Shown piece by piece: positions 3,159 through 64,000 of a stretch of 64,000 bases of DNA (within the stretch, counting starts at the first letter, position 1; each line of letters begins with the position of its first letter). The stretch is taken from assembly GCA_030619765.1 (NCBI GenBank), contig JAUXAU010000002.1, forward strand, positions 1,724 through 65,723, given 5' to 3'. Under the pieces are notes generated by a model. It saw only the letters and a program-made list of their open reading frames with translations. It was not told where the DNA came from and did not search any database. A program made the translations under genes and the position numbers. This DNA is from Thermoplasmatota archaeon (GTDB lineage Archaea; Thermoplasmatota; E2; DHVEG-1).

Positions 3159-3680
3159 ATGATGGGTACAACTATGGGAAAAACATTATCATTAAAATTG
3201 AATGATGAGGGGGAGAAAAAGATAGATCGTTTTCTCGAGGGGGAAGGGATAACTCCTAGTGAGTTGCTCCGAAAAGCATTATGGCAGTATATCAACGAGG
3301 TAAACCCTGAGGTAAACCTCCCACAACAGAAGAAAAACCATAAAAAGGTAAACCAGGTAGACCTAAAGGTAAACCTCAAACAACAGAAGAAAACCGGTCA
3401 AGAGGTAAACCATGAGGTAAACCAGGTAGACCAAAAGGTAAACCTCAAACAACAGAAGAAAACCGGCCAAGAGGTAAACCATGAGGTAAACCAGGTAAAT
3501 CACCCTGTTCAGATTGTGGAAAACTACGAGCTCCTGCGCCATTATAAAGAAGAGATCGAATGGTTACGCAACCGTGTTGAATATTTTGAAGGATTCTGTA
3601 AAGATCTTCGACAGGATATGTCTTCAAAGATAGATATCAAGGCAAAAAAGGAATCAGCAATATCACGGTTTCGAATGTAA
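3159..3680 (+). CDS. ribbon-helix-helix (CopG/Arc-like) protein with internal xVNx tandem repeats and coiled-coil tail
   Basis: N-terminus KTLSLKLNDEGEKKIDRFLEGEGITPSELLRKALWQYI fits the strand-helix-helix pattern. The middle is a 23-aa tandem repeat, KVNLKQQKKTGQEVNHEVNQVDQ. Start may be one of the internal Met codons (MMGTTMGK). Confidence 0.45.
   Translation: MMGTTMGKTLSLKLNDEGEKKIDRFLEGEGITPSELLRKALWQYINEVNPEVNLPQQKKNHKKVNQVDLKVNLKQQKKTGQEVNHEVNQVDQKVNLKQQKKTGQEVNHEVNQVNHPVQIVENYELLRHYKEEIEWLRNRVEYFEGFCKDLRQDMSSKIDIKAKKESAISRFRM
3299..3501 (+). repeat. in-frame tandem repeat (69-bp unit, 12-nt sub-period) built on the octamer GGTAAACC
   Basis: 9 exact GGTAAACC, plus 2 GGTAGACC and 1 GGTAAATC. 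The unit starting at 3365 recurs at 3434, a 69-nt period. Confidence 0.9.
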
Positions 3681-3721
3681 GTTGCACCACAATCTTGATT
3701 TTTCTTTCATGTTGAAATTAA

Positions 3722-3794
3722 CGCCGTCTGCCGGACTCGGACCGGCGACCGCTCGGTTAACAGCCGAGTGCTCTACCAACTGAGCTAAGACGGC
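3722..3794 (-). tRNA. tRNA-Asn (GTT)
   Basis: Reverse complement GCCGTCT-TA-GCTC-AGTTGGTA-GAGC-A-CTCGG-CTGTTAA-CCGAG-CGGTC-GCCGG-TCCGAGT-CCGGC-AGACGGC-G. Perfect 7/4/5/5-bp cloverleaf, anticodon GTT, no encoded CCA, no intron. Confidence 0.9.
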
Positions 3795-3894
3795 ACATCT
3801 CTGTGGCACAACAGAATTAAGGTTTTATATTAAACCTTTTTCCTTAGAAATGTTTTTCTTTCCCAAATGCCTTGTGTAATTATTTTAAGGGATT

Positions 3895-3976: not shown

Positions 3977-5716
3977 TTATAGTCCTAGCATGTGCCTGAG
4001 TATTGGGAACATATTTGGGTGATTTTCTAGGAATCTTAGGAATAACAAATTTATGTTGAATGCTTTGTTTTTTGGTGTTGAAAGAGATACATCAATGGTG
4101 CAGAAGTCACTGCTGTCATCTTTATTTACTATTTTCAATTCTCCTGTGAACTCTGAATTTGGTTCATCTGGTGCTACAACAGACACTCCAACTGTATATG
4201 CTCCATGTTCTGGGGTCAGGTCATATCCTTCTTCTGGAGTGAACGTCCAGAAACCCCAATCTGGTTTGGATTCTATCTCCCAATCGAGCAATGAGGATGT
4301 TTCACCGATATTTTTAACGACGAAGGTACCGGTTTGGGTTGATCCCGCTGGTACTTTGGTCCAGATAAGGCTACCATCACCATCTAGATTTGGGCCGTAT
4401 TGTGGTTCTAGGGGGATGTAACAAATTTTGAATACTTTATTCCGATTAAAACTAGGATAGGGGTTTATGTATTCCCAAATGATTTCTTTTTCAGGAGTTA
4501 CTTCAAAAAAGATACCATTTACTCCGTTGCAGATGAGGGTGTTACCATTCGGGAGTCGTTGGCATCCTGACATAATACTTGAATAAAAAGCTGTTGGGAT
4601 GTTGGCAGTATAGATCCATAGTGGGTTTTCTGGTCCATAGGGTAAACCAGGAGTATGCATATAGGTACCGTTTGGGGTTACGGGAGGAAGGATTTCTTCT
4701 ACTGAGGAGTATTTTCCTTCGGGGCGATCTAATCCGTTGTTAAAAATGAGGATATTGCCGGTTCCTGGGCATCCAGATTCAATCCATTGTGCATCGTGTT
4801 GTGCAAAGAATTGTTGATCCGTAGCTGTTCCAACACGGTAGGTTTGTGAATTGCCCCAGCGGTATAGGAGATCACCACCTTTACCAGAATTTCCACCGGT
4901 ATGTCCTGCTGCTTCTTCGGTAGTGGTGCTATGATCAATTACCCAAATTTCATTGAAATACCAGGAACTCAGAAGGATTTGATCCAGGTTTTCATTATAG
5001 TCAATAGAGTTTACGTGTGTCCAATCTACTGTCTGAAATGGATGTCCACCGGCAAAATTAATGTCGATTAATTCAGGATGATCAGCTACTATACCATAGT
5101 TATTTTTTGAAGGATCATAATCCTGAATGAGATGATCCCAAACATGCCATTCCCAGACAATATCTCCGTTTGTCGAACCGGTTGGCTTAACCTCGATGAT
5201 GTGATCTGGTGTTAATTTAAAAGGTGGGAGATATGGTTTATGTCCTGCAGCGATTGCCTCAGCAATTGTTTTGAAACTCCAAGCGATCATGAGGACGTTG
5301 CCGTTGGGTAGTGGTTCGATATCATGATGGCTGAGATACTCATCGGAAACGTAGGTGAATTCCCATATGATATCACCGTCCCATGTTATTTCCTGAACCA
5401 TACCGCCTGAGTTTAAATAATATTTAGCTGTTCGTAAGATGTTACCATTTTCTAGTGGATATACTGAATAGCCGGGTGGGTTACTGTTTGGCCAGGTGTG
5501 CATGATCTCCCCATCATAATTTAATAGATAGGTTGTTGTAGAGCTAAAGGGACTGAAGAGGATATTTCCATCAAAATGATTTGTGATAAAACGATATTGT
5601 TCTGCAGGTTTACTCATAGTGGAAGGTGTTAGGGATATACTGAGTAGCAATATAATCACACCATAAATTATGTAATTATGATATATTTGAGTAGTCATCG
5701 GATTTCCTCTGAACAT
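3977..5716 (-). CDS. secreted beta-propeller protein, arylsulfotransferase (ASST)-like, with shared C-terminal cassette
   Basis: N-terminal hydrophobic anchor/signal. Repeated NGN/HHD-type propeller motifs (HHDIEPLPNGNVLM, WHVWDHL, DWTHVNSIDYNE) as I recall for ASST families. The last ~135 aa are homologous to the C-terminus of the 61855 gene. Confidence 0.5.
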   Translation of the reverse strand: MFRGNPMTTQIYHNYIIYGVIILLLSISLTPSTMSKPAEQYRFITNHFDGNILFSPFSSTTTYLLNYDGEIMHTWPNSNPPGYSVYPLENGNILRTAKYYLNSGGMVQEITWDGDIIWEFTYVSDEYLSHHDIEPLPNGNVLMIAWSFKTIAEAIAAGHKPYLPPFKLTPDHIIEVKPTGSTNGDIVWEWHVWDHLIQDYDPSKNNYGIVADHPELIDINFAGGHPFQTVDWTHVNSIDYNENLDQILLSSWYFNEIWVIDHSTTTEEAAGHTGGNSGKGGDLLYRWGNSQTYRVGTATDQQFFAQHDAQWIESGCPGTGNILIFNNGLDRPEGKYSSVEEILPPVTPNGTYMHTPGLPYGPENPLWIYTANIPTAFYSSIMSGCQRLPNGNTLICNGVNGIFFEVTPEKEIIWEYINPYPSFNRNKVFKICYIPLEPQYGPNLDGDGSLIWTKVPAGSTQTGTFVVKNIGETSSLLDWEIESKPDWGFWTFTPEEGYDLTPEHGAYTVGVSVVAPDEPNSEFTGELKIVNKDDSSDFCTIDVSLSTPKNKAFNINLLFLRFLENHPNMFPILRHMLGL

Positions 5717-5806: not shown

Positions 5807-6010
5807 TTAATTCATTAATATCGAAAAAAGTGAGAGAAGATAATGAAGTAGTGGAAAGTGTTCGATGAGTCTTTGAATGAAGGTGAGGGTGAGTGATCTG
5901 AAGGTTATATTGGGGTGTGATGTCGTGAGAGCGACGGGGATGAGTTCGTAGTCGCTGGGGTCGTCGGTGTTGATGACTTTGATGTTGCCGCTGAAGTCTG
6001 AACGGGGGAC
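5807..6010 (-). pseudogene. start-less remnant of the secreted-protein C-terminal cassette
   Basis: Open frame without a start codon: VPRSDFSGNIKVINTDDPSDYELIPVALTTSHPNITFRSLTLTFIQRLIEHFPLLHYLLSLFSILMN*. It aligns with EFTGE[LV]K[IV]VN..D....IPV.L.TP...F..RFL...P..FPILR..LGL of genes 3977 and 61855. Visibly more GC-rich than its flanks. Confidence 0.6.
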
Positions 6011-6016
6011 AATTTA

Positions 6017-6061
6017 ATTTAAATGTTTTCCATGATATTCTTATTGCAACATCTGTAACAA
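6017..6061 (-). promoter_or_regulatory. promoter-like repeat module (copy gamma): TTGTTACAGATGTTGCAATAA..N..TTTAAAT
   Basis: Reverse complement TTGTTACAGATGTTGCAATAAGAATATCATGGAAAACATTTAAAT matches 44439-44483 and 44799-44843, with the same 38-39 nt spacing to the TATA-like TTAAAT. Confidence 0.5.
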
Positions 6062-6752: not shown

Positions 6753-7394
6753 ATGATTTTGGGACTGTTGTTTTTAAGTGGCTGCGAAGAAACGCCCCCC
6801 AATCAGGAAAGCAATGAAAACAGAGTTTATATTAAGAATGACAATGATGATGGCAATGTCGCTATTTTAACTGATTCTATTCCGGATTTTTCGGGTTATA
6901 TTATAGGTAATAGTGATCAGCAGCTCATAGTTGGCTTATTTACTTCAGGTTTTTTACCAGATGGAGATAACCTTACCTCTAGAGGGATTTTCCGTTTTGA
7001 TATCTCAGAATGGAATGAAACGGACATAATATTTTATTTAAAATGTGTAAATATCATAGGGAATCCAGGCGAATTAAAGGTATATCTAACAGATAAATTG
7101 GAACCTCTATCCGATCAGTCTGAAATAGAAGATGTTTCAGCAATATGGAATTTGATAGAATCATCAGGTAAAGAAATAACTGAACTAACCCCACAGGTAG
7201 ATAAATGGATGAATGTAACTATTTCAAAAGGTACTGTTAATGAGATGTATTCAGGAAAAGGCTACATGACAATTATGTTAAAACTATCAGATGAGAACAT
7301 GGATTCAAACACCGATTACTATGGATTTGCATCCGTTGATTACACGCCCTCAGTGGAAAATGACCAGCCATATCTTTTTTATGTACAGGATTAA
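6753..7394 (+). CDS. predicted lipoprotein, unknown function
   Basis: Short signal ending in lipobox-like LFLSGC. No recognisable catalytic motif. Confidence 0.4.
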   Translation: MILGLLFLSGCEETPPNQESNENRVYIKNDNDDGNVAILTDSIPDFSGYIIGNSDQQLIVGLFTSGFLPDGDNLTSRGIFRFDISEWNETDIIFYLKCVNIIGNPGELKVYLTDKLEPLSDQSEIEDVSAIWNLIESSGKEITELTPQVDKWMNVTISKGTVNEMYSGKGYMTIMLKLSDENMDSNTDYYGFASVDYTPSVENDQPYLFYVQD

Positions 7395-12358: not shown

Positions 12359-13900
12359 TTGAATAAAAATGATTTGTGGAAGAAAGTTTTAGTCTTTGGA
12401 ATACTATTTGCATTTATTGGTGTGAGTATTGCATCAGCATCATTAATTCCAAAAAGTGCTGAAAAAACTAGTAACAGCGATATACCTACATGGTATGAAG
12501 GAGATGAATGGATATATACTGCCGATCCTGTGTTTTATTCGGGAGAAAATGGATCTTTTTCTGGAAAAATAGAGAATTTAAAAAACAAAGTGTTGAACAT
12601 AACAAATATTATGCATGATGGCAAGCAATATAAGGTTTATGGAGTTGAGATAACTGGGGACATAAGTGGAGATTTTTCATTTAACGAACTCTCTGGTGAT
12701 CTTGTTGGTGAAATTATCGGAACAACCTTTATACGAGTTTCTGATCTTGCTCAAATAAAAACTGAAATATTATCAGAAGGAACCATTAAAATATTATTTG
12801 TAGACCTAGACTATGAGGCAAACTTTGACACAAATTTTTTCCCTCCGTTGGAATTGTATGACTTTCCTTTAAATGTAGGTGAACAATGGGATATATCCTG
12901 TGAAAGTGTCTCATCAGGAGCATTTAGTTTAGAAGGATTGATCAATGACTCGTTCTCTGGAAGTCAATGGATAATTGGAACGATGTATTGCGATAAGAAG
13001 GAGGATGTGAACGTTCCTGCTGGAGTATTTGAATGTTATAAACTCAATCGTACTGACAATGCCGTCTGGTATTCTCCAGATGTCGGTAATTCCGTTAAAT
13101 CAATTGTGGACATGAGTGATGAAAATACAACATTCCTTGCAACTCTTTCTCTCGAATCGTTTTCCCGGAGCATCCAACCTATTACCATTACTCTCGATAT
13201 TGATCCACCCGAAACGGTTTCTGGTGAAATGGTGAATATTTCTGGCCAAGCAATAGAGTCGGGAACGGGCAATCCTCTTCAAAATGCAGATATTTCAATA
13301 GAAATTCCATCAACAGGTGATATTTGGGTTACAACTACGGATATTGATGGATATTATTCGGAAACCATTGTAGCCCCTGAAATAACAGATGATACACCAT
13401 CTGCTGACGAAATCGGTTCTGATGGAGTCATCGTACAGTGCTTGTCACCTCCTCCATTTGGCATTAGAGTGAAAACACTAGTAATAATAGAAAATACTTC
13501 TCCAGATACACCAACTATAGATGGTTCCACAAGTGGCAAAGTAGGAACGGAGTATGACTATACATTTTCCTCGACAGATCCTGATGGAGATGATGTATAT
13601 TATTACATCGACTGGGGTGATGGCGAGTTTGAAGACTGGTTTGGCCCATTTAATTCTGGTGATCCACAGATAAAAAGCCATTCCTGGTCTGAACAAGATA
13701 CTTATACAATTAAAGCCAAAGCTAAAGATACAAAGGGTTTGGAAAGTGATTGGGGTACATTAGAAGTCACTATGCCAATGAACCATCAGTCAACAAACAT
13801 GTTGTTTTTTCAATTTCTAGAAAAAATTCTACAGCGTTTTCTGCTCTTTGATTGGATACTATCATCGTTTCCAGCCTTAAACAGAATATTAACTCTCTAA
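12359..13900 (+). CDS. secreted multidomain protein (CarboxypepD_reg-like + WGDG/PKD-like module + FPxL tail)
   Basis: TTG start after a GGGGA RBS, followed by a signal peptide. Contains ISGQAIESGTGNPLQNADISIE...DIDGYYSETI and YYYIDWGDGEFEDWFGPF. The C-terminus is LFFQFLEKILQRFLLFDWILSSFPALNRILTL. Confidence 0.6.
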   Translation: MNKNDLWKKVLVFGILFAFIGVSIASASLIPKSAEKTSNSDIPTWYEGDEWIYTADPVFYSGENGSFSGKIENLKNKVLNITNIMHDGKQYKVYGVEITGDISGDFSFNELSGDLVGEIIGTTFIRVSDLAQIKTEILSEGTIKILFVDLDYEANFDTNFFPPLELYDFPLNVGEQWDISCESVSSGAFSLEGLINDSFSGSQWIIGTMYCDKKEDVNVPAGVFECYKLNRTDNAVWYSPDVGNSVKSIVDMSDENTTFLATLSLESFSRSIQPITITLDIDPPETVSGEMVNISGQAIESGTGNPLQNADISIEIPSTGDIWVTTTDIDGYYSETIVAPEITDDTPSADEIGSDGVIVQCLSPPPFGIRVKTLVIIENTSPDTPTIDGSTSGKVGTEYDYTFSSTDPDGDDVYYYIDWGDGEFEDWFGPFNSGDPQIKSHSWSEQDTYTIKAKAKDTKGLESDWGTLEVTMPMNHQSTNMLFFQFLEKILQRFLLFDWILSSFPALNRILTL

Positions 13901-19972: not shown

Positions 19973-20524
19973 ATGTTATATAAAAAATATTTTGCCCCAA
20001 TGATAATAACAATCATAATAGGATGTATTTTTATAAGCGGTTGTTTGGATATAATGAATGGAGGTGATCAAACAAATGCGTTTATTACCTATGAGAATGC
20101 AAAATACGGAGTAGTCATAAAATATCCAGATACGTGGGCTAAACTAGAAAATCCTACAAAGGATGTTTTTATTGTTTTTATGCCTGATGAAGATGATGTT
20201 TTACGGGGAGTGTTTAATGTATCTATTTTGACAGATGATTCATTAGATATGGAGTTATTTAAGAAAACGCATATTGACTCTTTGTATGATATGTTTACAG
20301 ATTTAAATATGTCCTATGAAAATTCAACAACTCTAGCTGGCAAAGAGGCATATACAGTACTTTTTACGTTTAGAGATGGTGGACATACGTTTAAACGCCT
20401 TGAGACATGGACGTTAGAGAATGGTAAAGCGTATCTGTTGGTATATCAGGCAGATATAACTTATTATGATGAATATATTAGTATTGTTGAAAAGATGGTT
20501 GATTACTTTGAGATAACACAGTAA
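19973..20524 (+). CDS. predicted lipoprotein, unknown function
   Basis: Signal with lipobox FISGC. No motif recognised. Confidence 0.45.
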   Translation: MLYKKYFAPMIITIIIGCIFISGCLDIMNGGDQTNAFITYENAKYGVVIKYPDTWAKLENPTKDVFIVFMPDEDDVLRGVFNVSILTDDSLDMELFKKTHIDSLYDMFTDLNMSYENSTTLAGKEAYTVLFTFRDGGHTFKRLETWTLENGKAYLLVYQADITYYDEYISIVEKMVDYFEITQ

Positions 20525-20749: not shown

Positions 20750-21547
20750 ATGATAAATAAGAATTTACAAAAAAAAGGCCTAGTTTTTGTAACAATTGCT
20801 TTGTTTTTTGGAATAAGTGCCATTCCAGCAGCTGGGAATATCGAAACGGAAAATTTTCCATACGCAGAAGATTCCTCATCGGGTTTTCAAATGACATTGA
20901 ACGTTGATCCATACCCTGTTTTAGAGGGGACCCTAGGTGAAAATGATTGGTATATAAGTTCTGTTTGGATAGGTTTTGTGTATGACCCTCACGAAGTGGC
21001 AGAAATTTATTACGCCATTGATGGAGGAAATTGGGTGCTGTATCCCGGGGATCCAGTCGAAGTCTCAGATGATGGAATGCATATGTTAGAATGGTACTGG
21101 GTCGATGAAGATGGAAAACAGTATACGGGAACGCCAAGGTTTTTCAGGATAGATAAAACTGCACCTACTATTGTCCTTAAGAAATTTAATGTTCCTTTAA
21201 ATAAAGATAAGCTTAGATTTGAAGCTGATGTTAGCGATGCTGCTAGTGGTGTAGAGAGAGTGGAGTTCTATTTAGACGATGTGCTTCAGGAGACTTTAAT
21301 GAGTCCGCTTTATGAATGGGAATATGAAAAAACTGATGAGGATGAACATTTTGTTTTTGCTATTGTTTACAATAACGCAGGGCTTTCAGAAAAGAGCGAG
21401 ACGCTTAGTACACCTCTTATCTCATCCTATGACGCCATGATCTTCAGCAAATTTATTCTGAGAATACAAAGCATGGTCGTGTGGAATCAAAACGTTTTAA
21501 AATTAATCTTCTATCTTTTTTCTTCTATGATGATTCATGAGAAATGA
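20750..21547 (+). CDS. secreted protein with the surface-protein modules also found at the C-terminus of the 21922 gene
   Basis: Signal peptide after a GGGGGA RBS. GENDWYISSV...IYYAIDGGNW...DDGMHMLEWYWVDEDG...IDKTAPTI and GVERVEFYLDD parallel GENGWYVSDV...IEYRVNGGSW...DGEHTVQYKAIDNVGN...IDQTVPIV and MDYVEFLLND. Confidence 0.55.
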   Translation: MINKNLQKKGLVFVTIALFFGISAIPAAGNIETENFPYAEDSSSGFQMTLNVDPYPVLEGTLGENDWYISSVWIGFVYDPHEVAEIYYAIDGGNWVLYPGDPVEVSDDGMHMLEWYWVDEDGKQYTGTPRFFRIDKTAPTIVLKKFNVPLNKDKLRFEADVSDAASGVERVEFYLDDVLQETLMSPLYEWEYEKTDEDEHFVFAIVYNNAGLSEKSETLSTPLISSYDAMIFSKFILRIQSMVVWNQNVLKLIFYLFSSMMIHEK

Positions 21548-37102: not shown

Positions 37103-37912
37103 ATGAAAAAACAAGTGACAAGTATAGCTATAATTTTTCTTTTCCTAATCGGAGTATTTAGCGGATGCGTAGAAGAAACTCCCGAGATTAAAAAAAATAA
37201 AATTTATGTAAATAATGATGGAACATCTGATTTTATAAGTATTCAAGATGCAATAAATGCTTCAAGTGACAATGGTTTTATATATGTAAGTAAAGGAACA
37301 TTTTATGAATCATTGACTATTAATAAACCAATAAAGCTTATTGGTGAGGGTAAAGATAGCACTATTATTAGTGGGAGATATATTGAAGAAGGAATTGAAA
37401 GCTTAATTTCGATTATGACTGAAAATTGTAGTATTCAAGGATTTACACTAAAAAATGGTAATAATTCTCTTTTAGACGGAATTAATGCAGTTTATTCATC
37501 TAACATTTCAATTATAAACAATAGTGTTGTTGGTTTTAATAATGGTATTTATCTAACTACTAGCTCAAATATGAATTCTATTAGTAGTAATTTAGTTTTA
37601 AGCAATACGTACGGTATTAGAATTCAACTTTCCGAGTATAATACTGTTAGTGAAAATAATTTAATTAATAATACCCGTGGTGTATTTGTTTGTTGTTCAT
37701 CAGAGTATAATGAAATCCATTTTAACAATTTTTTTGAAAATCATGGATTTAATGGATATGAAACCCATGAACTAGTGAATCACTGGGATAATAATTATTG
37801 GGATGATTATACTGGCATTGATGAAGATAATGATGGTTATGGTGATACTCCGTATAATATTCCAAGTGGTACAAACAACGATTCAAAACCGTTAATGAAT
37901 CCTTTTGAATAA
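37103..37912 (+). CDS. lipoprotein with right-handed beta-helix (NosD/CASH-like) repeats
   Basis: Lipobox VFSGC. IYVNNDGTSDFISIQDAINASSDNGFIYVSKGTFYESLTINKPIKLIGEG, then repeated N-x-I/V-x-x-N turns. Confidence 0.6.
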   Translation: MKKQVTSIAIIFLFLIGVFSGCVEETPEIKKNKIYVNNDGTSDFISIQDAINASSDNGFIYVSKGTFYESLTINKPIKLIGEGKDSTIISGRYIEEGIESLISIMTENCSIQGFTLKNGNNSLLDGINAVYSSNISIINNSVVGFNNGIYLTTSSNMNSISSNLVLSNTYGIRIQLSEYNTVSENNLINNTRGVFVCCSSEYNEIHFNNFFENHGFNGYETHELVNHWDNNYWDDYTGIDEDNDGYGDTPYNIPSGTNNDSKPLMNPFE

Positions 37913-42110: not shown

Positions 42111-42443
42111 ATGACTATGGCAGAAGAAACAACAAAAAAGGAAACCACTGAAGAAAGAAGAACAGATGAAAACGTAATATATGTTGGAAGCAAACCGCCA
42201 ATGAGCTATGTACTTGCTGTAGTAACTCAGTTTAATAGCGGTTCTGACGAGGTGGTTATAAAAGCTAGAGGCAGGGCGATAAGTACGGCGGTAGACACTG
42301 CAGAAATTGTGAGAAACAGATTTGTTACAGATGCAAAACTAAAAGAGATAAAAATTGGTACTGAGAGCATTACCAATGAAGAAGGTAGAACATCTAATGT
42401 ATCTACAATGGAAATATGCTTAACTAAAAAGACAAGCAAATAG
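42111..42443 (+). CDS. albA: Alba DNA/RNA-binding protein
   Basis: [51 protein letters not shown]. Start is probably the second ATG (42117), given the GAAGGAG spacing. Confidence 0.85.
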
Positions 42444-42501: not shown

Positions 42502-42960
42502 ATGAAAAAACAACTTTTGATACTTGGAATGGCTTTTCTGCTCTTGGATGCCGTGTTAAGTGGTTGTATTACTTCAATCGATGACAATAATAGTTACCAA
42601 AAATCTATAATTCTAGATGATGATCTCTTTCAAAATGCTTCACGAGACCAATATAAAATTATTAACATAGGAATTGAAGTAGACATATTAGAAATTAATG
42701 TGTCATATAGTGGAGGATGTGAGGAGCACGAATTTTCTCTTTTTGGATCGTCTTCTTTTAAGGAGAGTTTACCGGTTCAGATAAAAGTTGTACTTTCCCA
42801 TAATGATAACGATGATCCATGTGATGGAATTTGTTCTGAGGAACTGGCTTTTGATCTCTCACCGTTAAAAGAAAAATGGCAAGAGGCATATCAGCAAAAT
42901 TCAGGAACTATAATTATATGGCTTGAAGGTGTAGAAGAATCTTTATCCTATGAGTTTTAA
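42502..42960 (+). CDS. predicted lipoprotein, unknown function
   Basis: Signal with lipobox LSGC and several conserved-looking Cys. No motif recognised. Confidence 0.45.
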   Translation: MKKQLLILGMAFLLLDAVLSGCITSIDDNNSYQKSIILDDDLFQNASRDQYKIINIGIEVDILEINVSYSGGCEEHEFSLFGSSSFKESLPVQIKVVLSHNDNDDPCDGICSEELAFDLSPLKEKWQEAYQQNSGTIIIWLEGVEESLSYEF

Positions 42961-44405: not shown

Positions 44406-44484
44406 GAAATGAAATCAGTCCACCTACAATAATTGGATTTGTTACAGTTGTTGTAATAAAATATTATGAGGAATCCTTAAATAC
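44406..44484 (+). promoter_or_regulatory. promoter-like repeat module (copy alpha)
   Basis: GAAATGAAATCAGTCCAC...TTGTTACAGTTGTTGTAATAAAATATTATGAGGAATCCTTAAATA. Lies upstream of the 44542 small gene. Confidence 0.5.
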
Positions 44485-44682: not shown

Positions 44683-44773
44683 ATAAAATTTTCGAAATCA
44701 CCTAGATTTTAACAATCTTTATTTAAATATCTTTCTTTTTTTTTTTAATTCTAAATTCCATAGAGTAATTGTG

Positions 44774-44844
44774 GAGATGGAATCAGTCCACTAAACTTTT
44801 GTTACAGATGTTGCAATAAATATAATGAGAAAGATATTTAAATG
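44774..44844 (+). promoter_or_regulatory. promoter-like repeat module (copy beta)
   Basis: GAGATGGAATCAGTCCAC...TTGTTACAGATGTTGCAATAAATATAATGAGAAAGATATTTAAAT. Lies upstream of the 44895 gene. Confidence 0.5.
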
Positions 44845-44894
44845 AGATAATTATATCTTATACAGGAAATTTTTAATTAAGGGAGGAACAAATA

Positions 44895-45833
44895 ATGAAA
44901 AAGAAAATATTAGGTATTTTTGTATGTATGCTGTTAATTGCAACTGCTTTACCTGCAGTAGGGACAATGACTGAACAAGATTATAATTCAAGTAATCAAA
45001 ACATTGGTGACCGTGGTGGAATGTTTAGACAGCTCCCATCTCCACCAGTTGATCCCATGCCATATGGTTGGATAAGCGATTCACAGATGGGGTGGCAGGT
45101 TTATGAAGATTTCTGGGAGGTTTCCAGTCCAATCTGTGACATTCACTGGTGGGGTGGGACTCCCATATGGATGAATGAAACCTGGTATCCTTGTAATCCT
45201 GAGGGTATGACCTTCGACATTATTTTCTTTGAGGATGAAGATGGTATGCCTGGTAACGTGTCTTGTTCATATGATGACATTTCGCCGATAATAACTCCAA
45301 CTGGTATTATGTATGATTATCCTGATGAGTTCCCTGAAGGTCCCTTTGAATTATATTATTTTGAGGCAGATCTCAATCCATGTTGCAATCTGTCTAACGG
45401 GTGGGTGTCGATAATCAAAAAATATAGTCCCAACGACTGTACATTCGGGTGGCATGAATCTCCCGATGGTAACGACAAGATAATCCAAAATATTAATTGG
45501 CGCTCTACAGATGTTGCTTTTATATTAACTGATGGTGAAGAGCCTGACCTTGAAATAAATATCAAGAGTGGACTTGGTGCTACTATAGAAGTTACGAACA
45601 GCGGAAATGAAACATTAACCGGAATACCTGTTGACGTTGTAGTATATGGTGGTCTACTCAGCAAGATTAATGTACATGTTAGAGAAACCATAAGTCTTGA
45701 CCCTGATGAAACAAAACCAGTAGGTACAGGGATATTCCTTGGACTTGGGAAAATAGCAATAGGTGTAATTGCAGATGATGTAGTTGAATATCATAGTGGA
45801 TTGCAATTATTCATTTTCACCATAGTGCAATAA
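44895..45833 (+). CDS. secreted protein, unknown function, with C-terminal beta-sandwich shared with the S8 protease
   Basis: AAGGGAGGAA RBS and signal peptide. C-terminal IKSGLGATIEVTNSGNETLTGIPVDVVVYGGLL...LGLGKIAIGV parallels GGLFKVSAKIINKGGAEATSINWSITLEGGIILLG...LGFGNTKITI of the 9416 gene. Confidence 0.6.
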   Translation: MKKKILGIFVCMLLIATALPAVGTMTEQDYNSSNQNIGDRGGMFRQLPSPPVDPMPYGWISDSQMGWQVYEDFWEVSSPICDIHWWGGTPIWMNETWYPCNPEGMTFDIIFFEDEDGMPGNVSCSYDDISPIITPTGIMYDYPDEFPEGPFELYYFEADLNPCCNLSNGWVSIIKKYSPNDCTFGWHESPDGNDKIIQNINWRSTDVAFILTDGEEPDLEINIKSGLGATIEVTNSGNETLTGIPVDVVVYGGLLSKINVHVRETISLDPDETKPVGTGIFLGLGKIAIGVIADDVVEYHSGLQLFIFTIVQ

Positions 45834-46779: not shown

Positions 46780-47271
46780 TCAATTTAAAGGTTTTATAGA
46801 CATTTCGATTCTTTGTAATAGCTTGTACAACAATGGAAAGTTATGTGATATCGAATCTTCTATTTCTTGTAAATGGAATGTAAATGTTTGATCATCAACT
46901 ACCAGAAAATCAAACATAATAATTTGATACTCTTCGTTTACGTCATCAATAGTAACTCTATAATTAGAATCAATCTCTAATTCAAGAACACAAAATCCGT
47001 CCTCATTAGTAATATTTGAGTCGTTATGCCCCGTATCTAGTCCATATGCAACTATTGGTACATTCTCTATTGGATCACAGGCACATCCATCACCCACAAA
47101 TAGAGTGAATTCGATTTGTGCAAAAAATAAAGGTTGATTTGCTGGACGTTTGTTTTTTTGGACAATTTCTTCATCAAAACCTCCTATTGTCATAGTGGTA
47201 AATAGCGAAATCACCAAGAGTATTGTTATGCTAGCCCTTATAATTTTACTCATTCCATTGTTTGTCTTCAT
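46780..47271 (-). CDS. secreted protein, unknown function, with FPLL-type C-terminal tail
   Basis: N-terminal anchor/signal. C-terminus ...SISHNFPLLYKLLQRIEMSIKPLN. Confidence 0.45.
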   Translation of the reverse strand: MKTNNGMSKIIRASITILLVISLFTTMTIGGFDEEIVQKNKRPANQPLFFAQIEFTLFVGDGCACDPIENVPIVAYGLDTGHNDSNITNEDGFCVLELEIDSNYRVTIDDVNEEYQIIMFDFLVVDDQTFTFHLQEIEDSISHNFPLLYKLLQRIEMSIKPLN

Positions 47272-49974: not shown

Positions 49975-50233
49975 TCGTGTACAATCTTATGATGAATTTC
50001 TTTGTTTGATTGAAGATATACCTAAGGAGAAATTATCTGTTGATTGTTATCACGATTTATTGGTTAAAAAAAGCATGTGAACAACGGTTTTGACTCGATT
50101 TATAAAGGTTTGTATAATCGCCTATTTTTACTTACATATATAATGCTTCCATTTACGATTATGTATTGGAAAATAATTTAAATCAAAATCTGATTGCTTT
50201 GCTAGATTCTTGTTGTTTGGAGGAGGAATAGCT

Positions 50234-51412
50234 ATGAAAGAAGCAGTAATAGTTTCAGGTGTACGAACGGCACAGGGTAAATTTGCGGGTAGTTTGAAAA
50301 GTTTCTCTGCTCCGCAGCTTGGTGGTATGGCCATCAAAGAGGCTGTTAAGAGAGCAGGTATAAAACCAACTGATGTCGATGAAGTAATTATGGGTAATGT
50401 TGTCCCTGCAGGTCTTGGCCAGAATGTTGCACGACAAGCTGCAATAGCGGCTGGTATACCATATAAAGTCGGTGCTTTTCATGTTGATAAGGTATGTGGC
50501 TCATCACTTAAGGCTGTGGTATTAGCTGTTCAGGCTATCAAATGTGGAGATGCAGATGTTGTTGTTGCTGGTGGGATGGAGAGTATGACTAATTGTCCAT
50601 TTGCACTTCCAAAAGCTCGTTTTGGGTACCGATTGTTTGATGGAAAAGTTATTGACCTAATGATCCGAGATGGACTTTGGGATGTTTATAATGATTTTCA
50701 TATGGGTAATACTGGAGAGGTCGTAGCTGAGAAATACAATGTAACTAGACAAGACTGTGATAAGTTTGCCTTATGGAGTCATCAAAAAGCTGCGAAGGCT
50801 ACTGAAAACGGCAGCTTTAAGAATGAAATATTACCGATAGAGATTAAGCAGAAGAAAGGAGACCCCATTGTTTTTGACAAGGATGAAGGAATTAGAAAAG
50901 ATTCAACACTAGAGAAACTTGCTAAGCTACCACCGTTTTTTAGGAAGGACGGTGTGGTTACCGCAGGAAACGCCTCACAAATTACCGATGGTGCCTCTGC
51001 GGTTGTGGTTATGAGTGAAGATAAAGCAAAAAAAATGGGGATTACATCACTTGCAACAGTTAAAGGATATAACACGAGTGGTGTGGAGCCAGCATATGCG
51101 ATGGAAGCTCCTATTCCTGGTGTGAAGAGTCTTTTGAAAAAGATGAAATTCAGTATCGATGATATTGATTTAGTTGAACATAACGAGGCGTTTTCTTCTG
51201 CTTCTGTAGCGGTTATGAAGGGACTAGGTATTCCCAAGGAGAAATTTAATGTACACGGTGGTGCAGTTGCACTTGGCCATCCAATTGGCAATAGTGGATC
51301 AAGGATACTGATTACTCTTATGTATGCAATGAAAAAGTATAAGAAAACAAGAGGTCTTGCTACGATTTGTCTTGGAGGAGGAAATGCCGTCTCCATGATC
51401 ATTGAAAGGTAA
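50234..51412 (+). CDS. acetyl-CoA C-acetyltransferase (thiolase II)
   Basis: VCGSSLKAV (active Cys), [24 protein letters not shown] and [16 protein letters not shown] 50234 follows GGAGGAGG. Confidence 0.9.
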
Positions 51413-51428
51413 ATTAGGAGGTTTTTTA

Positions 51429-52283
51429 ATGAAGGCTAAGAAAATAGGCGTTATTGGTGCTGGTCAGATGGGGCATGGTATCGCTCTAGTTGCTGCAAAA
51501 GCAGGTTTTGACGTTATTTTGAGGGATATTAAAGATGAGTATGTCAAGAAAGGACTGAGTAAAATTGAACGTTTTCTTGATAAAAGCATTGAGAAAGGGA
51601 AATTAACTGCCGAAGAAAAAAAGGCAATTCTTTTGCATATAAAAGGCACTACAAAACTTGAAGATCTCAAAGACGTTGACCTCGTCATTGAAGCGATCTT
51701 TGAAAATGTAGAAGTAAAGAAGACATTGTTTAAGGATCTGGATAAGATTTGTAAGAAAGAGACATATTTCGCGTCGAACACATCAACCATTCCTATAACT
51801 GATCTTGCTTCAGTTACAGGTAGACCTGAACATTTTATTGGTATGCATTTTATGAATCCTGTACCTATAATGAAACTAATAGAAGTTATAAAGGGACTTA
51901 AAACGTCTGATGAAACTGCAGCATTTATTAAAGAACTTGCAGAAAAAATGGGAAAAATACCTGTTGAGGTGAATGACGGACCTGGATTTGTATCAAACCG
52001 TGTGCTTATACCGATGATAAACGAAGCAGTGTTCTGTCTTATGGATGGAACGGGAACTGCTGAATCGATTGACAACGTAATGAAGCTAGGTATGAACCAT
52101 CCAATGGGTCCGCTAGAACTTGCAGATCTCATCGGTCTAGATGTATGTCTAGATATTATGAATGTACTTTACGAAGGCTTTAATGATTCCAAGTATAGGC
52201 CCTGCCCGTTGCTTAAAAAGATGGTTCAAGCAGGTCAGTTAGGGAGAAAAACCGGTAAAGGTTTCTATGATTATAGTAGGTGA
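51429..52283 (+). CDS. hbd: 3-hydroxybutyryl-CoA dehydrogenase
   Basis: [14 protein letters not shown] Rossmann motif, [11 protein letters not shown], and [14 protein letters not shown]. Confidence 0.9.
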
Positions 52284-52290
52284 TCTAGGT

Positions 52291-53070: not shown

Positions 53071-53075
53071 TACGT

Positions 53076-54409: not shown

Positions 54410-54424
54410 AACAAATCATCCTCC

Positions 54425-57873: not shown

Positions 57874-57893
57874 TATTTTCATCAGGTGATGTA

Positions 57894-59513: not shown

Positions 59514-59528
59514 GAGGTCGAAATAGAT

Positions 59529-60290: not shown

Positions 60291-60296
60291 TAGAAG

Positions 60297-61854: not shown

Positions 61855-64000
61855 TTATAGTCCTAGTAGCTGTCTTAGTATTGGGAATGCATTTGGGAAC
61901 TGCTGCAAAAACCGTTGGAATAACGTGTTGATAACTTTGTTTCTTGGTGTTTTAAGTAAGACAGGTATTATATCGAAGTCATTACCATTTTCTCTATTAA
62001 CTACTTTTACTTCGCCAGTAAACTCTAGATTTTGTTGATCCGGTGCTACAACTTCCACTTCTACAGTAACTGATCCATCTTCAGGGGTTAGATCATCTCC
62101 GCTAGAAGGAGTAAATGTCCATTCACCCCATGTTGGGCATTCACAGATTTCCCAATCAAGCAATGAACCTGGTTCACCAATGTTTTCTACAAATATGATA
62201 GTTGTTACTGTTTCACCTGGTTTTACATTGGTCCAAGTCAGATCACCTTCACAAGTTAAATCAGGTATCAGAGGCGGTGGCAGTTCACAATCATAAACAG
62301 TAATACTAAAAGCATCAATACCTGCTTCTACAACAGAACCAGCATTAAGATCTGAGGCTTCGAAGCGAACTTTGACCTGACTAGTTGGTGTTACAAACTC
62401 TCCAACCATAAAGCTTTTTTCTTTCCATCCTGAAGAGGTCACAGGTCCAATTATTTCAACCAAATTCCAGTTGGCGCCATCATCATTTGAGACATAGACT
62501 TTAAAGAGATCATTGTGTGGGTCATTGCCAAAATCATTGGTATACCACAATGCATAGCCAACTTTCGCGTTATCGGTATCACTTAGATCTATTGTTGGGG
62601 AAATCAACCACGTAATCCCATCATCGACATCAGAGTCACCATATCTATTATCAGTCAGGTAGCATTTCCCTGAACCGTCGTAGTCTGTTGGCGGGTCACC
62701 ACGGACACCTCCACCAACAGGAACACCACGTTCCCAGGCTCCAGTAGTAAGATAGGGATCATTTTCTACTGTCCAACCAAGATCGGTTTCAAAATCATCT
62801 TCTATTATTATATCAATATCGTAAGCAAAAACAGCATTATACCATTCGTTTGGTGCTCCTGGTGGCCATAATTGGATTTGCCCATCTGTTGTCTCAGCTG
62901 AAAAGTAAAAAGAAACTTGACTTTGGCATTCGCCTCCAGGGAAAACAGCATCATAAACGTTCGGCTCAATCTCTGTCATTGGGATTTCCTCCCAGCCAGA
63001 ACCGTTGTCTAAGTGTAAAACCCCCGTATCTGGTTCTGGTACACTTGCTACTCCATTAACATTTACTCTCACTGTGGTCCCCCCACCTGGAGAGATTATT
63101 TCAGGAATTCCATCAGGAAATTCGAAAGCAAGCAGAGCTAGAGGAGGTGCATCCATGTTGTGCTCGCCAAAACCAGTCGCAATTTCCCAGTAATGTGGTG
63201 TCCCATCATAGATGTTACCATTGTCGTCATCCAAAACCAGGTAATCGATAGTAATACTTGGAGTGATCATGCTACCGGTGTGCAATAGCATAGCGTTAAT
63301 TGCTAGGTTGCTGATAATGTCAATATAAGTAGATGGATTAGTAATCTCCAATTCGTTACGAGTTTCCCAGATACAACCAGAAATCAACTGTCCGCAATAA
63401 TGAATTTCTCCACTACACGGGTACTGTATATCATTATCAGCGTCTCTAAGAGGTGAATTACAGTCGCCTAAGAAACCCCAACCTGTTCCAGATTCATCTA
63501 AAATGAGCACACCCATTGCATCACCCATACCTTCGCCATATTGTCCTTGTCCGCTACCAGCCATCGATACTAGATGATGGCCATATTCATGATGGACAAT
63601 AGTTGAAAAGGCAGTGTTAGGGCATCCACCTCCTGATGTGAAAAAGTTAATCGAGCTGTAATCGTAGAACGCATTACAATTGTCGTTAAAATTTACGTTA
63701 ACCGGGAATTCATTTTGCTGCAGGCCTGGATAACTTGGATTATAGGTGAGTGTGAAATCACGTACGATGTTGGCCTGGAGATAGCCATTGACTTCAGCTC
63801 GTTTGTACTCGTCATTGTTTAGATTGTTATGCATAAAATTAGCTGGACCTGGGGGCGTTACTGTGTTATATAGTACTGTGTTTGCCCCTGCCAGATTAGA
63901 AACCTTAAACCACTGTCCCCAAAGTCGAGATTCAACGGTCACCGAGGAAGAACCTGAGTTAGGAATCGTGAAATCCCCATTTGCATCAGCATATGCAACA
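61855..64000 (-). CDS. secreted gluzincin metalloprotease (thermolysin/fungalysin-like) with MAM-like jelly-roll and shared C-terminal cassette; 5' end outside window
   Basis: HEYGHH plus GEGMGDAMG (HExxH...ExxxD). The reading frame stays open upstream of the track's GTG at 63942 to the window edge. DDFETDLGWTVEND...CYLTDN...NWNLVE domain. C-terminus ...EFTGEVKVVNRENGNDFDIIPVLLKTPRNKVINTLFQRFLQQFPNAFPILRQLLGL. Confidence 0.75.
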   Translation of the reverse strand, partial: VAYADANGDFTIPNSGSSSVTVESRLWGQWFKVSNLAGANTVLYNTVTPPGPANFMHNNLNNDEYKRAEVNGYLQANIVRDFTLTYNPSYPGLQQNEFPVNVNFNDNCNAFYDYSSINFFTSGGGCPNTAFSTIVHHEYGHHLVSMAGSGQGQYGEGMGDAMGVLILDESGTGWGFLGDCNSPLRDADNDIQYPCSGEIHYCGQLISGCIWETRNELEITNPSTYIDIISNLAINAMLLHTGSMITPSITIDYLVLDDDNGNIYDGTPHYWEIATGFGEHNMDAPPLALLAFEFPDGIPEIISPGGGTTVRVNVNGVASVPEPDTGVLHLDNGSGWEEIPMTEIEPNVYDAVFPGGECQSQVSFYFSAETTDGQIQLWPPGAPNEWYNAVFAYDIDIIIEDDFETDLGWTVENDPYLTTGAWERGVPVGGGVRGDPPTDYDGSGKCYLTDNRYGDSDVDDGITWLISPTIDLSDTDNAKVGYALWYTNDFGNDPHNDLFKVYVSNDDGANWNLVEIIGPVTSSGWKEKSFMVGEFVTPTSQVKVRFEASDLNAGSVVEAGIDAFSITVYDCELPPPLIPDLTCEGDLTWTNVKPGETVTTIIFVENIGEPGSLLDWEICECPTWGEWTFTPSSGDDLTPEDGSVTVEVEVVAPDQQNLEFTGEVKVVNRENGNDFDIIPVLLKTPRNKVINTLFQRFLQQFPNAFPILRQLLGL

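What the first reader, a model, noticed from the sequence alone, without database searches (positions are those of the whole stretch)
3977..4385. Shared C-terminal cassette ending in an FP[IL]L[RHY]x[LM]L tail on at least five secreted-protein loci: candidate lineage-specific sorting or anchoring signal
Unrelated enzymes share this cassette: the ASST-like propeller (3977..5716) and the gluzincin protease (61855..).

Both end with a homologous ~110-aa beta-sandwich (LDWEI...W.FTP..G.DLTPE.G..TV.V.VVAPD....EFTGE.K.VN......F..I.V.L.TP.NK). It is followed by an extreme C-terminal tail: LFLRFLENHPNMFPILRHMLGL versus LFQRFLQQFPNAFPILRQLLGL. The nucleotide sequence of the tail is also highly similar in the two genes.

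Tail variants close three other loci:
- Gene 12359..13900: FFQFLEKILQRF...FPALNRILTL, at 13772-13897.
- Gene 46780..47271: HNFPLLYKLLQRI..., at 46783-46848.
- The remnant at 5807-6010: FIQRLIEHFPLLHYLLSL.

The 20750 product has a degenerate F.KFIL...LKLIFYL ending.

The four intact proteins have N-terminal signals or anchors. The tail is amphipathic rather than a TM-plus-basic anchor, so it does not look like PGF-CTERM/PEP-CTERM or LPXTG signals. No sortase- or archaeosortase-like gene is in the window.
Basis: partly seen in the sequence, partly recalled or inferred. Interest (0 to 1): 0.7.

Follow-up and report, generated by a model that had tools for sequence, protein, structure and literature searches.

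The report
New C-terminal tag on archaeal secreted enzymes
Uncultured sediment archaea (Marine Benthic Group D) end many otherwise unrelated secreted enzymes with the same roughly 38-residue tail, which matches no described sorting signal and probably keeps the enzymes at the cell surface.

Summary
The core observation is real. Two unrelated secreted proteins in the window, an arylsulfotransferase-like propeller and an HExxH protease, share a 139-aa C-terminus (58% identity, E=5e-54). It has two separable parts: an ordinary ASH/PapD-type Ig-like spacer and a roughly 38-aa tail.

The tail consensus is [M/T]P-K/R-N-K, a variable linker, then LLxWLFERFPNAFPILRxLLG[L/Y] and the stop codon. AlphaFold predicts a tethered helix-turn-helix hairpin.

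- **Position:** in 1 Mb of related genomes, 108 of 123 tail hits end within 3 residues of the stop, and none is truly internal.
- **Export:** 86 of 94 full-length carriers have Sec-type signal peptides.
- **Cargo:** C25 gingipain-like, C1, M14 and M12 peptidases, lectin-like domains and propellers, usually through a PKD domain.
- **Distribution:** essentially only Thermoplasmatota/Thermoprofundales genome bins, with at least 21 carriers in one bin.
- **Prior description:** no match in NCBIfam, Pfam, PDB or the literature searched.
- **Not a classical signal:** the tail has no transmembrane helix and no basic end.

A surface-retention or sorting function is inferred, and no partner was found.

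The parts
3977..5716 (-). Gene for a secreted arylsulfotransferase-like beta-propeller protein (579 aa) with an N-terminal signal or anchor, an ASH Ig-like spacer and a canonical tail
   Evidence: ORF. Pfam PF05935 at E=6e-21. N-terminal hydrophobic stretch IIYGVIILLLSISL.
4094..4396 (-). ASH/PapD-like Ig beta-sandwich spacer, the 'cassette' body
   Evidence: AF2 pLDDT 95+. Foldseek best hits are HYDIN, OCRL and CEP192 ASH domains at E=6e-6.
3980..4093 (-). Canonical C-terminal tail module, 38 aa: DVSLSTPKNKAFNINLLFLRFLENHPNMFPILRHMLGL. The helical hairpin is the last 29 aa (3980..4066).
   Evidence: Tail HMM 67.5 bits and ends at the stop. AF2 predicts helices at model residues 111-125 and 129-136.
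61855..64000 (-). Gene for an HExxH metalloprotease-like protein with a choice-of-anchor-J domain, an ASH spacer and a canonical tail. The 5' end lies beyond the window.
   Evidence: NCBIfam NF038128 at 3e-7. No Pfam or PDB family found for the catalytic part.
61858..61968 (-). Canonical tail of the protease: PVLLKTPRNKVINTLFQRFLQQFPNAFPILRQLLGL
   Evidence: Tail HMM 54.2 bits and ends at the stop. 58% identity to the ASST C-terminus.
5807..6013 (-). Pseudogene remnant: the last strand of an ASH cassette plus a short-variant tail (...FIQRLIEHFPLLHYLLSLFSILMN*)
   Evidence: BLASTP E=1e-10 to 1e-13 to cassette C-termini. All 8 listed phmmer hits are tail proteins.
13757..13897 (+). Divergent tail of secreted PKD protein 12359..13900 (TLEVTMPMNHQ...FLEKILQRF...SSFPALNRILTL*), with an extended first helix
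   Evidence: PKD domain in Pfam. Partial HMM hit of 12.9 bits. FPAL lies 10 aa from the stop. All 7 of its best non-self phmmer hits are tail proteins.
46783..46848 (-). Doubtful, degenerate tail-like ending (SHNFPLLYKLLQRIEMSIKPLN*) of small secreted protein 46780..47271
   Evidence: No HMM hit. Weak resemblance to the ...HPILYQLLQRFLRL* variant at E=0.02-0.1.
6041..6061 (-). Conserved 21-mer promoter-proximal motif TTGTTACAGATGTTGCAATAA upstream of the remnant. The same motif precedes secreted-protein genes at 44439..44459(+) and 44799..44819(+).
   Evidence: 3 matches against 0 expected; the motif lies upstream of signal-peptide genes in related genomes.

Best explanation
The tail is a lineage-specific C-terminal sorting or retention tag of Thermoprofundales (MBG-D) archaea.

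**Proposed mechanism**
- A protein is exported through Sec by its N-terminal signal peptide.
- Its catalytic or binding domains are followed by an Ig-like spacer (PKD, or here ASH).
- A short flexible linker then begins with a conserved [M/T]-P.
- The protein ends in a compact helix-PNxFP-helix hairpin whose last residue is the protein's C-terminus.
- I propose the hairpin is a docking handle recognised by a conserved cell-envelope partner that has not yet been identified. That partner could be a receptor or scaffold, or a sorting enzyme acting at the linker.
- The result would be that a chosen subset of the secretome stays on the cell surface instead of diffusing away. This subset includes peptidases, lectin-like proteins and propellers.

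**Shown here**
- The module exists.
- It sits at the extreme C-terminus.
- It is modular, appearing on unrelated cargo.
- Its carriers have signal peptides.
- It is restricted to one lineage.
- Selection acts at the protein level.
- It is predicted to fold as a helical hairpin.
- It has no transmembrane segment.

**Inferred**
- Surface retention.
- The existence of a protein partner.
- Any cleavage.
For: **Position**
- In 1.0 Mb of window plus related loci, 123 HMM hits were found. 68 end at the stop, 22 at +1, 9 at +2 and 9 at +3.
- In the library-wide search (1.84 billion representative proteins), all 147 top proteins have the tail, and 134 of their 148 tail matches end 3 or fewer residues from the C-terminus.
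- 1,416 representative clusters score E<=1e-10.

**Export**
- 86 of 94 full-length carriers start MKKK plus a hydrophobic stretch. A loose control gave 42%.

**Modularity**
- Cargo includes C25, C1, M14 and M12B peptidases, NosD/CBM96, Laminin_G_3, PQQ propellers, BNR and ASST.
- The tail follows two unrelated Ig domain types.
- Other secreted proteins in the window lack it, as expected for a sorting tag.

**Specific recognition rather than bulk physical chemistry**
- Conservation is near-invariant at P7, E23, F25, P26, N27, F29, P30, I31, L32 and R33, which includes polar residues and prolines.
- The distance to the free C-terminus is fixed: 5 residues after FPILR in 86 of about 121 proteins.
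- Each genome has its own flavour, in which the linker motif and the terminal residues change together across unrelated cargo. Examples are KNK...GL*, [CFL]SY...GY* and RNR...LLQRLGLQ*.

**Structure**
- AF2 gives two helices, at pLDDT about 82 with a 90-sequence alignment.
- They are joined to the Ig domain by a low-confidence linker.

**Selection and context**
- Synonymous codons vary freely, so selection is on the protein.
- The protease carries a 'choice-of-anchor J' domain. From my own knowledge of NCBIfam naming, this domain class is named for occurring upstream of different C-terminal anchors.
Against: - No partner gene was found. Nothing recurs next to tail genes in 80 loci from 34 genomes (best non-tail cluster: 4 genomes), and nothing sortase-like appeared among the 30 window ORFs scanned.
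- All carriers come from uncultured organisms, so there is no experimental localisation.
- The hairpin has broad hydrophobic stripes and could bind lipid directly.
- AF2 confidence for the tail is only moderate (60-82).
- Genome-specific flavours could reflect recent paralogue expansion or gene conversion rather than co-evolution with a partner.
- The conservation figures are inflated by ascertainment, because hits were gathered with motif- and word-based searches.
- 8 of 94 carriers lacked a recognisable signal peptide. These look like truncated or fragmented ORFs.
Confidence: 0.55

Rival explanations
1. The hairpin is a direct, non-covalent membrane anchor. Its two short amphipathic helices lie in the outer leaflet of the cytoplasmic membrane and tether the exported enzyme, as the C-terminal amphipathic helix of E. 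coli PBP5/PBP6 does. No protein partner would be needed.
For: - Helix 1 has a hydrophobic moment of 0.6-0.8.
- Hydrophobic residues recur at i, i+1, i+4, i+5 and i+8 in both helices.
- The tail is at the extreme C-terminus of Sec-exported proteins.
- No partner gene was found.
- A flexible linker precedes the hairpin.
Against: - Residue-level conservation of prolines, Asn, Glu and Arg over 15 positions is far more than lipid binding needs.
- The fixed distance to the free C-terminus and the genome-specific co-variation of linker and end are also more than lipid binding needs.
- The two hydrophobic stripes could simply pack against each other to form a soluble mini-domain.
Confidence: 0.2
2. 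The tail is the substrate signal of an unknown processing enzyme. That enzyme would cleave in the [M/T]P-K/R-N-K linker and either attach the mature protein covalently to a lipid or envelope polymer, or release it in a regulated way. This would be analogous in logic to sortase, archaeosortase, PorU or GPI transamidase.
For: - The module has three parts: a conserved P-x-N/S-x motif, a variable spacer and a conserved terminal element.
- The linker motif and the terminal residues change together between genomes.
- These organisms encode many clan-CD peptidases (C25, C11, C13) (PMC6461988).
Against: - The linker motif is not universal. It is KNK in some genomes, CSY, YSY or YEP in others.
- There is no transmembrane helix for a membrane-embedded sortase-type enzyme to hold.
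- No candidate enzyme was found.
- This explanation overlaps with the best explanation, in which the partner may itself be an enzyme.
Confidence: 0.15
3. The tail is not a localisation signal. Instead it is a C-terminal propeptide or assembly element, such as a folding aid, a latency element, or an oligomerisation hairpin that bundles different enzymes into complexes.
For: - Many carriers are peptidases, which often have removable C-terminal extensions.
- Hairpins with hydrophobic stripes can form helical bundles.
- Tail genes often lie in tandem arrays.
Against: - The same tail is on non-enzymes and non-peptidases such as lectin-like domains, propellers and ASST, so a latency role is unlikely.
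- It is tethered by a flexible linker rather than packed on the catalytic domain.
Confidence: 0.08

Closest known systems
PGF-CTERM / PEP-CTERM-type signals (archaeosortase and exosortase substrates)
   Same: - An extreme C-terminal tag on Sec-exported surface proteins.
- Many paralogous carriers per genome.
- Lineage-restricted.
- Appended to unrelated cargo.
- Co-occurs with 'choice-of-anchor' domains.
   Different: - Those signals are a short motif, then a transmembrane helix, then a basic cluster.
- This tail has no transmembrane segment and ends ...LLG[L/Y].
- It gives no NCBIfam hit even at E<=10.
- No archaeosortase was seen.
Type IX secretion C-terminal domain (CTD) of Bacteroidota
   Same: - Sits at the C-terminus of gingipain-type C25 peptidases and many other secreted hydrolases.
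- Lies behind Ig-like or PKD spacers.
- Marks a subset of the secretome for surface attachment.
   Different: - The CTD is a 70-100 aa beta-sandwich that is recognised by an outer-membrane translocon and removed by PorU.
- Here the signal is a hairpin of about 25 aa, in archaea that have no known outer membrane.
- There is no Pfam Por_Secre_tail hit.
C-terminal amphipathic helix anchor of E. coli PBP5/PBP6 (DD-carboxypeptidases)
   Same: A non-transmembrane amphipathic element at the extreme C-terminus that holds a Sec-exported enzyme on the outer face of the cytoplasmic membrane.
   Different: - The PBP5/6 anchor is a single helix with loosely conserved sequence, confined to one enzyme family.
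- Here there is a two-helix hairpin with a near-invariant 15-residue core, spread over dozens of unrelated proteins.
Dockerin-cohesin docking (cellulosomes)
   Same: A small module at the end of many different secreted enzymes, tethered by a linker and used for non-covalent docking to a surface scaffold. This is the logic I favour here.
   Different: - Dockerin is about 70 aa with duplicated Ca-binding loops.
- There is no sequence similarity, and no cohesin-like partner was identified.
ASH / PapD-like (HYDIN/VesB/CFA65-type) Ig domains
   Same: The 100-aa beta-sandwich in front of the tail in the two window proteins has this fold (Foldseek E=6e-6, TM 0.55-0.60). There is also a weak Pfam Cep192_D4 hit.
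   Different: This applies only to the spacer, not to the tail. The spacer is interchangeable with PKD in most family members.

Membership tests
Exosortase/archaeosortase-type C-terminal signals (PEP-CTERM, PGF-CTERM, PEF-CTERM etc.) | Hydrophobic transmembrane helix of about 18-20 residues after the signature motif | tested here: not met
   The best 19-aa Kyte-Doolittle window is 0.39-0.71 for canonical tails, with E, R, N, R and H inside the segment.
Exosortase/archaeosortase-type C-terminal signals (PEP-CTERM, PGF-CTERM, PEF-CTERM etc.) | Cluster of basic residues at the extreme C-terminus | tested here: not met
   Tails end ...LLGL*...LLGY* or ...LEFNH*.
Exosortase/archaeosortase-type C-terminal signals (PEP-CTERM, PGF-CTERM, PEF-CTERM etc.) | Match to a curated NCBIfam/TIGRFAM CTERM model | tested here: not met
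   No hit for the full proteins at E<=1 or for isolated tails at E<=10.
Exosortase/archaeosortase-type C-terminal signals (PEP-CTERM, PGF-CTERM, PEF-CTERM etc.) | Cognate sortase gene in the same genome | not testable with these tools
   Whole genomes could not be scanned. None was found among 30 window ORFs or as a recurrent neighbour in 80 loci.
LPXTG sortase signal | LPXTG-like motif followed by a transmembrane helix and a basic tail | tested here: not met
   No such motif or transmembrane segment in the consensus.
Type IX secretion CTD | C-terminal 70-100 aa beta-sandwich matching Por_Secre_tail / T9SS type A or B models | tested here: not met
   No Pfam or NCBIfam hit. The terminal element is helical. 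The beta-sandwich upstream is ASH-type.
Generic C-terminal protein-sorting tag (operational definition used for such signals) | Restricted to the extreme C-terminus | tested here: met
   108 of 123 hits end 3 or fewer aa from the stop. In the library-wide search, 134 of 148 tail matches end 3 or fewer aa from the end. The exceptions are read-through fusions.
Generic C-terminal protein-sorting tag (operational definition used for such signals) | Carriers have N-terminal export signals | tested here: met
   86 of 94 by a hydrophobicity heuristic, against 42% for the control. SignalP-type predictors were not available.
Generic C-terminal protein-sorting tag (operational definition used for such signals) | Many unrelated carriers per genome, confined to one lineage | tested here: met
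   At least 21 carriers in 118 kb held from one genome bin. Cargo is diverse. Of 169 pattern matches in 185,579 species genomes, 136 were confirmed. The 80 best loci listed are nearly all Thermoplasmatota.
Generic C-terminal protein-sorting tag (operational definition used for such signals) | Demonstrated processing or localisation dependence | not testable with these tools
   Needs proteomics or genetics, and the organisms are uncultured.
ASH/PapD-like Ig domain (the cassette body only) | Seven- to eight-stranded Ig-like sandwich that superposes on HYDIN, OCRL and CEP192 ASH domains | tested here: met
   AF2 pLDDT 95+. Foldseek E=6e-6 to 1e-3, TM 0.55-0.60.
Dockerin | About 70-aa duplicated Ca-binding F-hand module, with a cohesin partner | tested here: not met
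   No Pfam dockerin hit. The module is about 25-38 aa without D/N-rich loops. No partner is known.

The most novel reading that the evidence does not exclude
The hairpin tail is the address label of an undescribed archaeal protein-sorting system. It would not be a sortase-, archaeosortase- or T9SS-type system, because it has no transmembrane signal. A dedicated envelope machine or receptor would read the free C-terminal hairpin, and possibly cut at the [M/T]P linker, to display the hydrolase arsenal of Thermoprofundales on the cell surface. These are among the most abundant archaea in marine sediments.
Probability: 0.3. Interest if true: 0.8.

Novelty: new variant of a known kind. Interest (0 to 1): 0.62.

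Why it matters
MBG-D/Thermoprofundales are thought to drive protein degradation in anoxic sediments through extracellular peptidases (PMC6461988). Whether those enzymes are released or held on the cell decides who benefits from the hydrolysis products. It also affects how measured 'extracellular' activities should be interpreted.

- **Practical marker:** the tail marks the surface-directed secretome of this lineage in metagenomes.
- **Annotation:** it would annotate more than a thousand protein clusters that are now labelled 'hypothetical'.
- **Search handle:** it is a concrete handle for finding the unknown partner, by phylogenetic profiling, pull-downs or AF-multimer screens.
- **Mechanistic reach:** if a machine reads it, this would add a mechanistically new class, a helical hairpin without a transmembrane segment, to the known C-terminal sorting signals of prokaryotes.

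Tried and rejected
- **NCBIfam:** scanned with the full proteins (E<=1) and with isolated tails (E<=10). No CTERM or sorting model matched.
- **Pfam:** nothing over the tail.
- **PDB sequence profile of the tail:** only a chance hit at E=0.78.
- **Literature:** no description found using the motif strings, or 'archaeosortase' with Thermoplasmata/Thermoplasmatota, or Thermoprofundales with C-terminal terms.
- **Viral contigs:** 12 pattern matches, none confirmed.
- **Partner search by neighbourhood:** I clustered 853 ORFs from 80 loci. No non-tail family recurred in more than 4 of 34 genomes. Judged by eye from their sequences, those few look like generic genes such as a transcription regulator, an ABC ATPase, a transposase, an M14 peptidase, CBS and cyclophilin. 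No Pfam scan was run on them.
- **DNA-level element** (recombination site or RNA motif) as the cause of the tail's nucleotide similarity: rejected, because synonymous codons vary freely.
- **The 20750..21547 ending as a family member:** rejected.
- **First attempt at the genome scan:** it failed because the 61-sequence alignment was too diverse. I repeated it with 12 sequences.
It gave many C-terminal fragments but no architectures.
  - The library-wide search modelled 81 columns, including the PKD part of the first sequence. The count of 3,900 hits at E<=0.001 may therefore include PKD-only proteins. Only the top 147 were verified to carry the tail.
Full report
**1. The observation**

- ORF 3977..5716(-) encodes a 579-aa protein with an N-terminal hydrophobic anchor and a Pfam arylsulfotransferase (ASST) propeller, PF05935 at E=6e-21.
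- ORF 61855..(-) encodes a protein with an HEYGHH motif and an NCBIfam 'choice-of-anchor J' domain. It reads through to the window end, so its N-terminus is not available.
- The last 139 residues of the two proteins are 58% identical (E=5e-54). Their remaining 440 and 556 residues are unrelated (E=3.3).
- Both end in ...RFL(E/Q)xx PNxFPILRxxLGL followed by the stop.
- In all three best window cases, FP[IA]L lies exactly 10 residues before the stop.

**2. The 'cassette' is two modules**

- AlphaFold2 on the ASST C-terminus gives a beta-sandwich at pLDDT 95+, followed by two helices at pLDDT 60-70.
- The sandwich superposes on ASH/PapD-like Ig domains of HYDIN, OCRL and CEP192 (Foldseek E=6e-6). 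It is a generic spacer.
- Database relatives of the tail mostly carry a PKD domain instead of this sandwich.
- With a 90-sequence alignment of PKD-plus-tail proteins, the two helices reach pLDDT of about 82. The linker between the Ig domain and the hairpin stays low.
- The unit of interest is therefore a module of about 38 residues. Its consensus is TLEVSMPKNKAFPINPLLLRLLERFPNAFPILRHLLGL.
- That module reads as the last beta-strand, an invariant Pro, a variable linker, helix 1, a PNxFP turn, helix 2 and the C-terminus.

**3. It is a large, lineage-specific family**

- A search with cassette plus tail found 20 relatives, the named ones from 'Thermoplasmatales archaeon'. These include single-cell genome SCGC AB-540-F20, with locus tags MBGDF03_.
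- A tail profile found 120 more, all ending in the motif.
- A scan of one genome per species (185,579 genomes) with [RNQ][FH]PN[AM]FPIL gave 169 matches, of which 136 were confirmed by tblastn.
- Of the 80 loci returned, all but two carry Thermoplasmatota-type or unclassified-archaeon labels. They include SG8-52-3, SM1-50 and 3300003432D.
- PMC6461988 lists those three bins and AB-540-F20 as Thermoprofundales (MBG-D).
- One of the two oddly labelled contigs, L021 (Pirellulales), carries a near-match (2 mismatches) to the promoter motif of the window's lineage and is probably mis-binned. The other, L051 (Bathyarchaeia), was not checked further.
- My rough estimate of chance matches for that pattern in 596 Gb is a few tens. 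That is about the number left unconfirmed.
- A full HMMER pass over 1.84 billion representative proteins gave 1,416 clusters at E<=1e-10. All 147 top proteins carry the tail.
- None was found on viral contigs.

**4. Tests of the sorting-signal idea**

- **Position.**
  - Among all stop-to-stop ORFs of 1.0 Mb (window plus 80 loci) there were 123 HMM hits.
  - 68 end at the stop, 22 one residue before, 9 two and 9 three. Only 2 have 15 or more residues after the hit.
  - In the library-wide search, 134 of 148 tail matches end within 3 residues of the C-terminus.
  - The clearest exceptions are read-throughs into the next tail-protein gene. One continues straight into a signal peptide, and another has a second complete protein with its own tail.
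- **Export.** 86 of 94 full-length carriers begin with MKKK plus a hydrophobic stretch, against 42% of loosely chosen control ORFs.
- **Cargo.** Carriers include C25 gingipain-like, C1 papain, M14 and M12B peptidases, NosD beta-helix with CBM96, concanavalin-like lectin domains, PQQ propellers, BNR repeats and ASST.
- **Selectivity.** In the window, an S8 subtilase, a 1,412-aa InhA/MAM protein and a NosD-like protein are secreted without the tail. Several small proteins have lipobox-like N-termini instead.
- **Copy number.** At least 21 carriers occur in 118 kb held from one genome bin and at least 11 in another, often in tandem arrays. Short remnants like the one at 5810..6013 also occur.
- **Level of selection.** In 69 tails the conserved Leu uses six codons and the conserved Arg uses five. 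The conservation is on the protein, not the DNA.

**5. What kind of signal**

- The tail is not a transmembrane segment. The best 19-residue hydropathy window is 0.4-0.7, with charged residues inside, and it has no basic end.
- It matches no NCBIfam model, including every CTERM model in the June 2026 release. It also matches no Pfam model or PDB sequence.
- Literature searches for the motif or for such a signal in this lineage found nothing.
- Conservation is residue-specific: P7 0.95, E23 0.81, P26 0.95, N27 0.78, F29 0.97, P30 0.94, L32 0.95 and R33 0.88. These values are inflated by how the hits were gathered.
- The motif keeps a fixed distance to the free C-terminus.
- In each helix, hydrophobic residues fall at i, i+1, i+4, i+5 and i+8. 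These two stripes could pack on each other, leaving E23, R24, N27 and R33 exposed. This is inference.
- Tails come in genome-specific flavours in which the linker motif and the terminal residues switch together across unrelated cargo. Examples are P-KNK with ...GL*, P-[CFLY]SY with ...GY*, P-RNR with ...LLQRLGLQ*, and others ending ...LEFNH*.
- Shorter variants such as ERFPLLERLLSL... also close secreted proteins in the same genomes. The window remnant belongs to that variant.

**6. Mechanism**

- I favour a docking or retention tag. In this view the tethered hairpin, with its free C-terminus, is read by a conserved envelope partner, and tagged enzymes stay on the cell (confidence 0.55).
- The partner could be a receptor or an enzyme.
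- Rivals:
  - direct insertion of the amphipathic hairpin into the membrane surface, PBP5-like (0.2);
  - a cleavage and attachment signal acting at the linker (0.15, overlapping with the main idea);
  - a propeptide or assembly element (0.08).
- No partner emerged from the neighbourhoods. Among 853 ORFs in 34 genomes, no non-tail family recurs in more than 4 genomes. Any partner is therefore encoded elsewhere.

**7.

- The remnant at 5810..6013(-) is homologous to the end of the cassette plus tail, at E=1e-10 to 1e-13. It keeps a promoter motif upstream.
- 12359..13900 (PKD protein) has a divergent tail with a longer first helix. Its HMM hit is partial, but all 7 of its best non-self matches are tail proteins.
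- 46780..47271 is doubtful. Its ending resembles the ...HPILYQLLQRFLRL* variant only weakly.
- 20750..21547 is not a member.

**8. Verdict**

- The feature is real and abundant, and it is undescribed in every library and paper collection searched.
- It belongs to the known kind 'C-terminal sorting tags of secreted prokaryotic proteins'. Its architecture is new: a helical hairpin with no transmembrane segment and no basic tail. No reader is known.
- Its function is inferred from anatomy and distribution only.

Noticed in passing
window 6041-6061(-), 44439-44459(+), 44799-44819(+); also L001, L003, L005, L011, L012, L015, L020, L021, L024, L025, L027, L046: - A conserved 21-mer, TTGTTACAGATGTTGCAATAA, lies 13-25 nt upstream of a TTTAAAT TATA-like box.
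- It sits about 50-90 nt upstream of the ATG of genes that begin with a signal peptide, some with the tail and some without.
- In the window there are 3 matches against 0 expected.
- It looks like a shared operator or promoter of a 'secretome regulon' in the window's close relatives (bins JAUWBM, CP070724, CP070798, JAGLML).
   Followed up: partly
window 44700-45000 versus L027:510-820, L015:990-1270, L003:10160-10420: The 5' region and signal-peptide coding sequence (MKKKILGIFVCMLLIATA...) of secreted-protein genes is 77-81% identical at the nucleotide level between different genomes and different genes. The leader and promoter region appears to be a shared module, like the tail.
   Followed up: partly
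window 6753-7394, 19973-20524, 37103-37912, 42502-42960: Several small exported proteins have lipobox-like N-termini (…LSGC…, …FSGC…, …ISGC…). This suggests archaeal lipoprotein-type anchoring as a second, N-terminal way of surface retention in the same organism.
   Followed up: no
window 3159-3680 (+), repeats at 3297-3499: An ORF of 173 aa contains a 69-nt tandem repeat in 2-3 copies at 97% match. The repeat encodes a repeated VNLKQQKKTGQEVNHEVNQV-type segment. The protein has no Pfam family, and it lies next to tRNA-Asn (3721-3795).
   Followed up: no
P0145 and P0233 (database proteins); L035, L043, L023, L018, L058 (loci): - Tail-protein genes often lie head-to-tail in arrays of 4-6.
- Some database 'proteins' are read-through fusions of two such genes, with a tail followed directly by the next signal peptide.
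- Short tail-only remnants are common (L035, L044, L062, L070). This indicates rapid birth and decay of these genes.
   Followed up: partly
window 46780-47271(-) and L063:10389-10907(+): The small secreted protein of 163 aa has a C-terminal match in another Thermoplasmata genome bin...FVVLDNQWFSFHMKVIEESSHSFSFFQMILQKILFAKKLI* against ...VVDDQTFTFHLQEIEDSISHNFPLLYKLLQRIEMSIKPLN* (phmmer E=0.029 on the last 45 aa only). If it is a true homologue, it would be a separate small family whose ending only loosely resembles the tail.
   Followed up: no
window 50210-56101: The window also carries a block for thiolase, 3-hydroxyacyl-CoA dehydrogenase, methylmalonyl-CoA mutase and MeaB, followed by acyl-CoA synthetase and EtfAB-like genes (56734-61253). 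It also encodes an Alba-like protein (judged by eye) at 42111-42443 and housekeeping genes typical of an archaeon (MetRS, MCM-like, RIO kinase).
   Followed up: no
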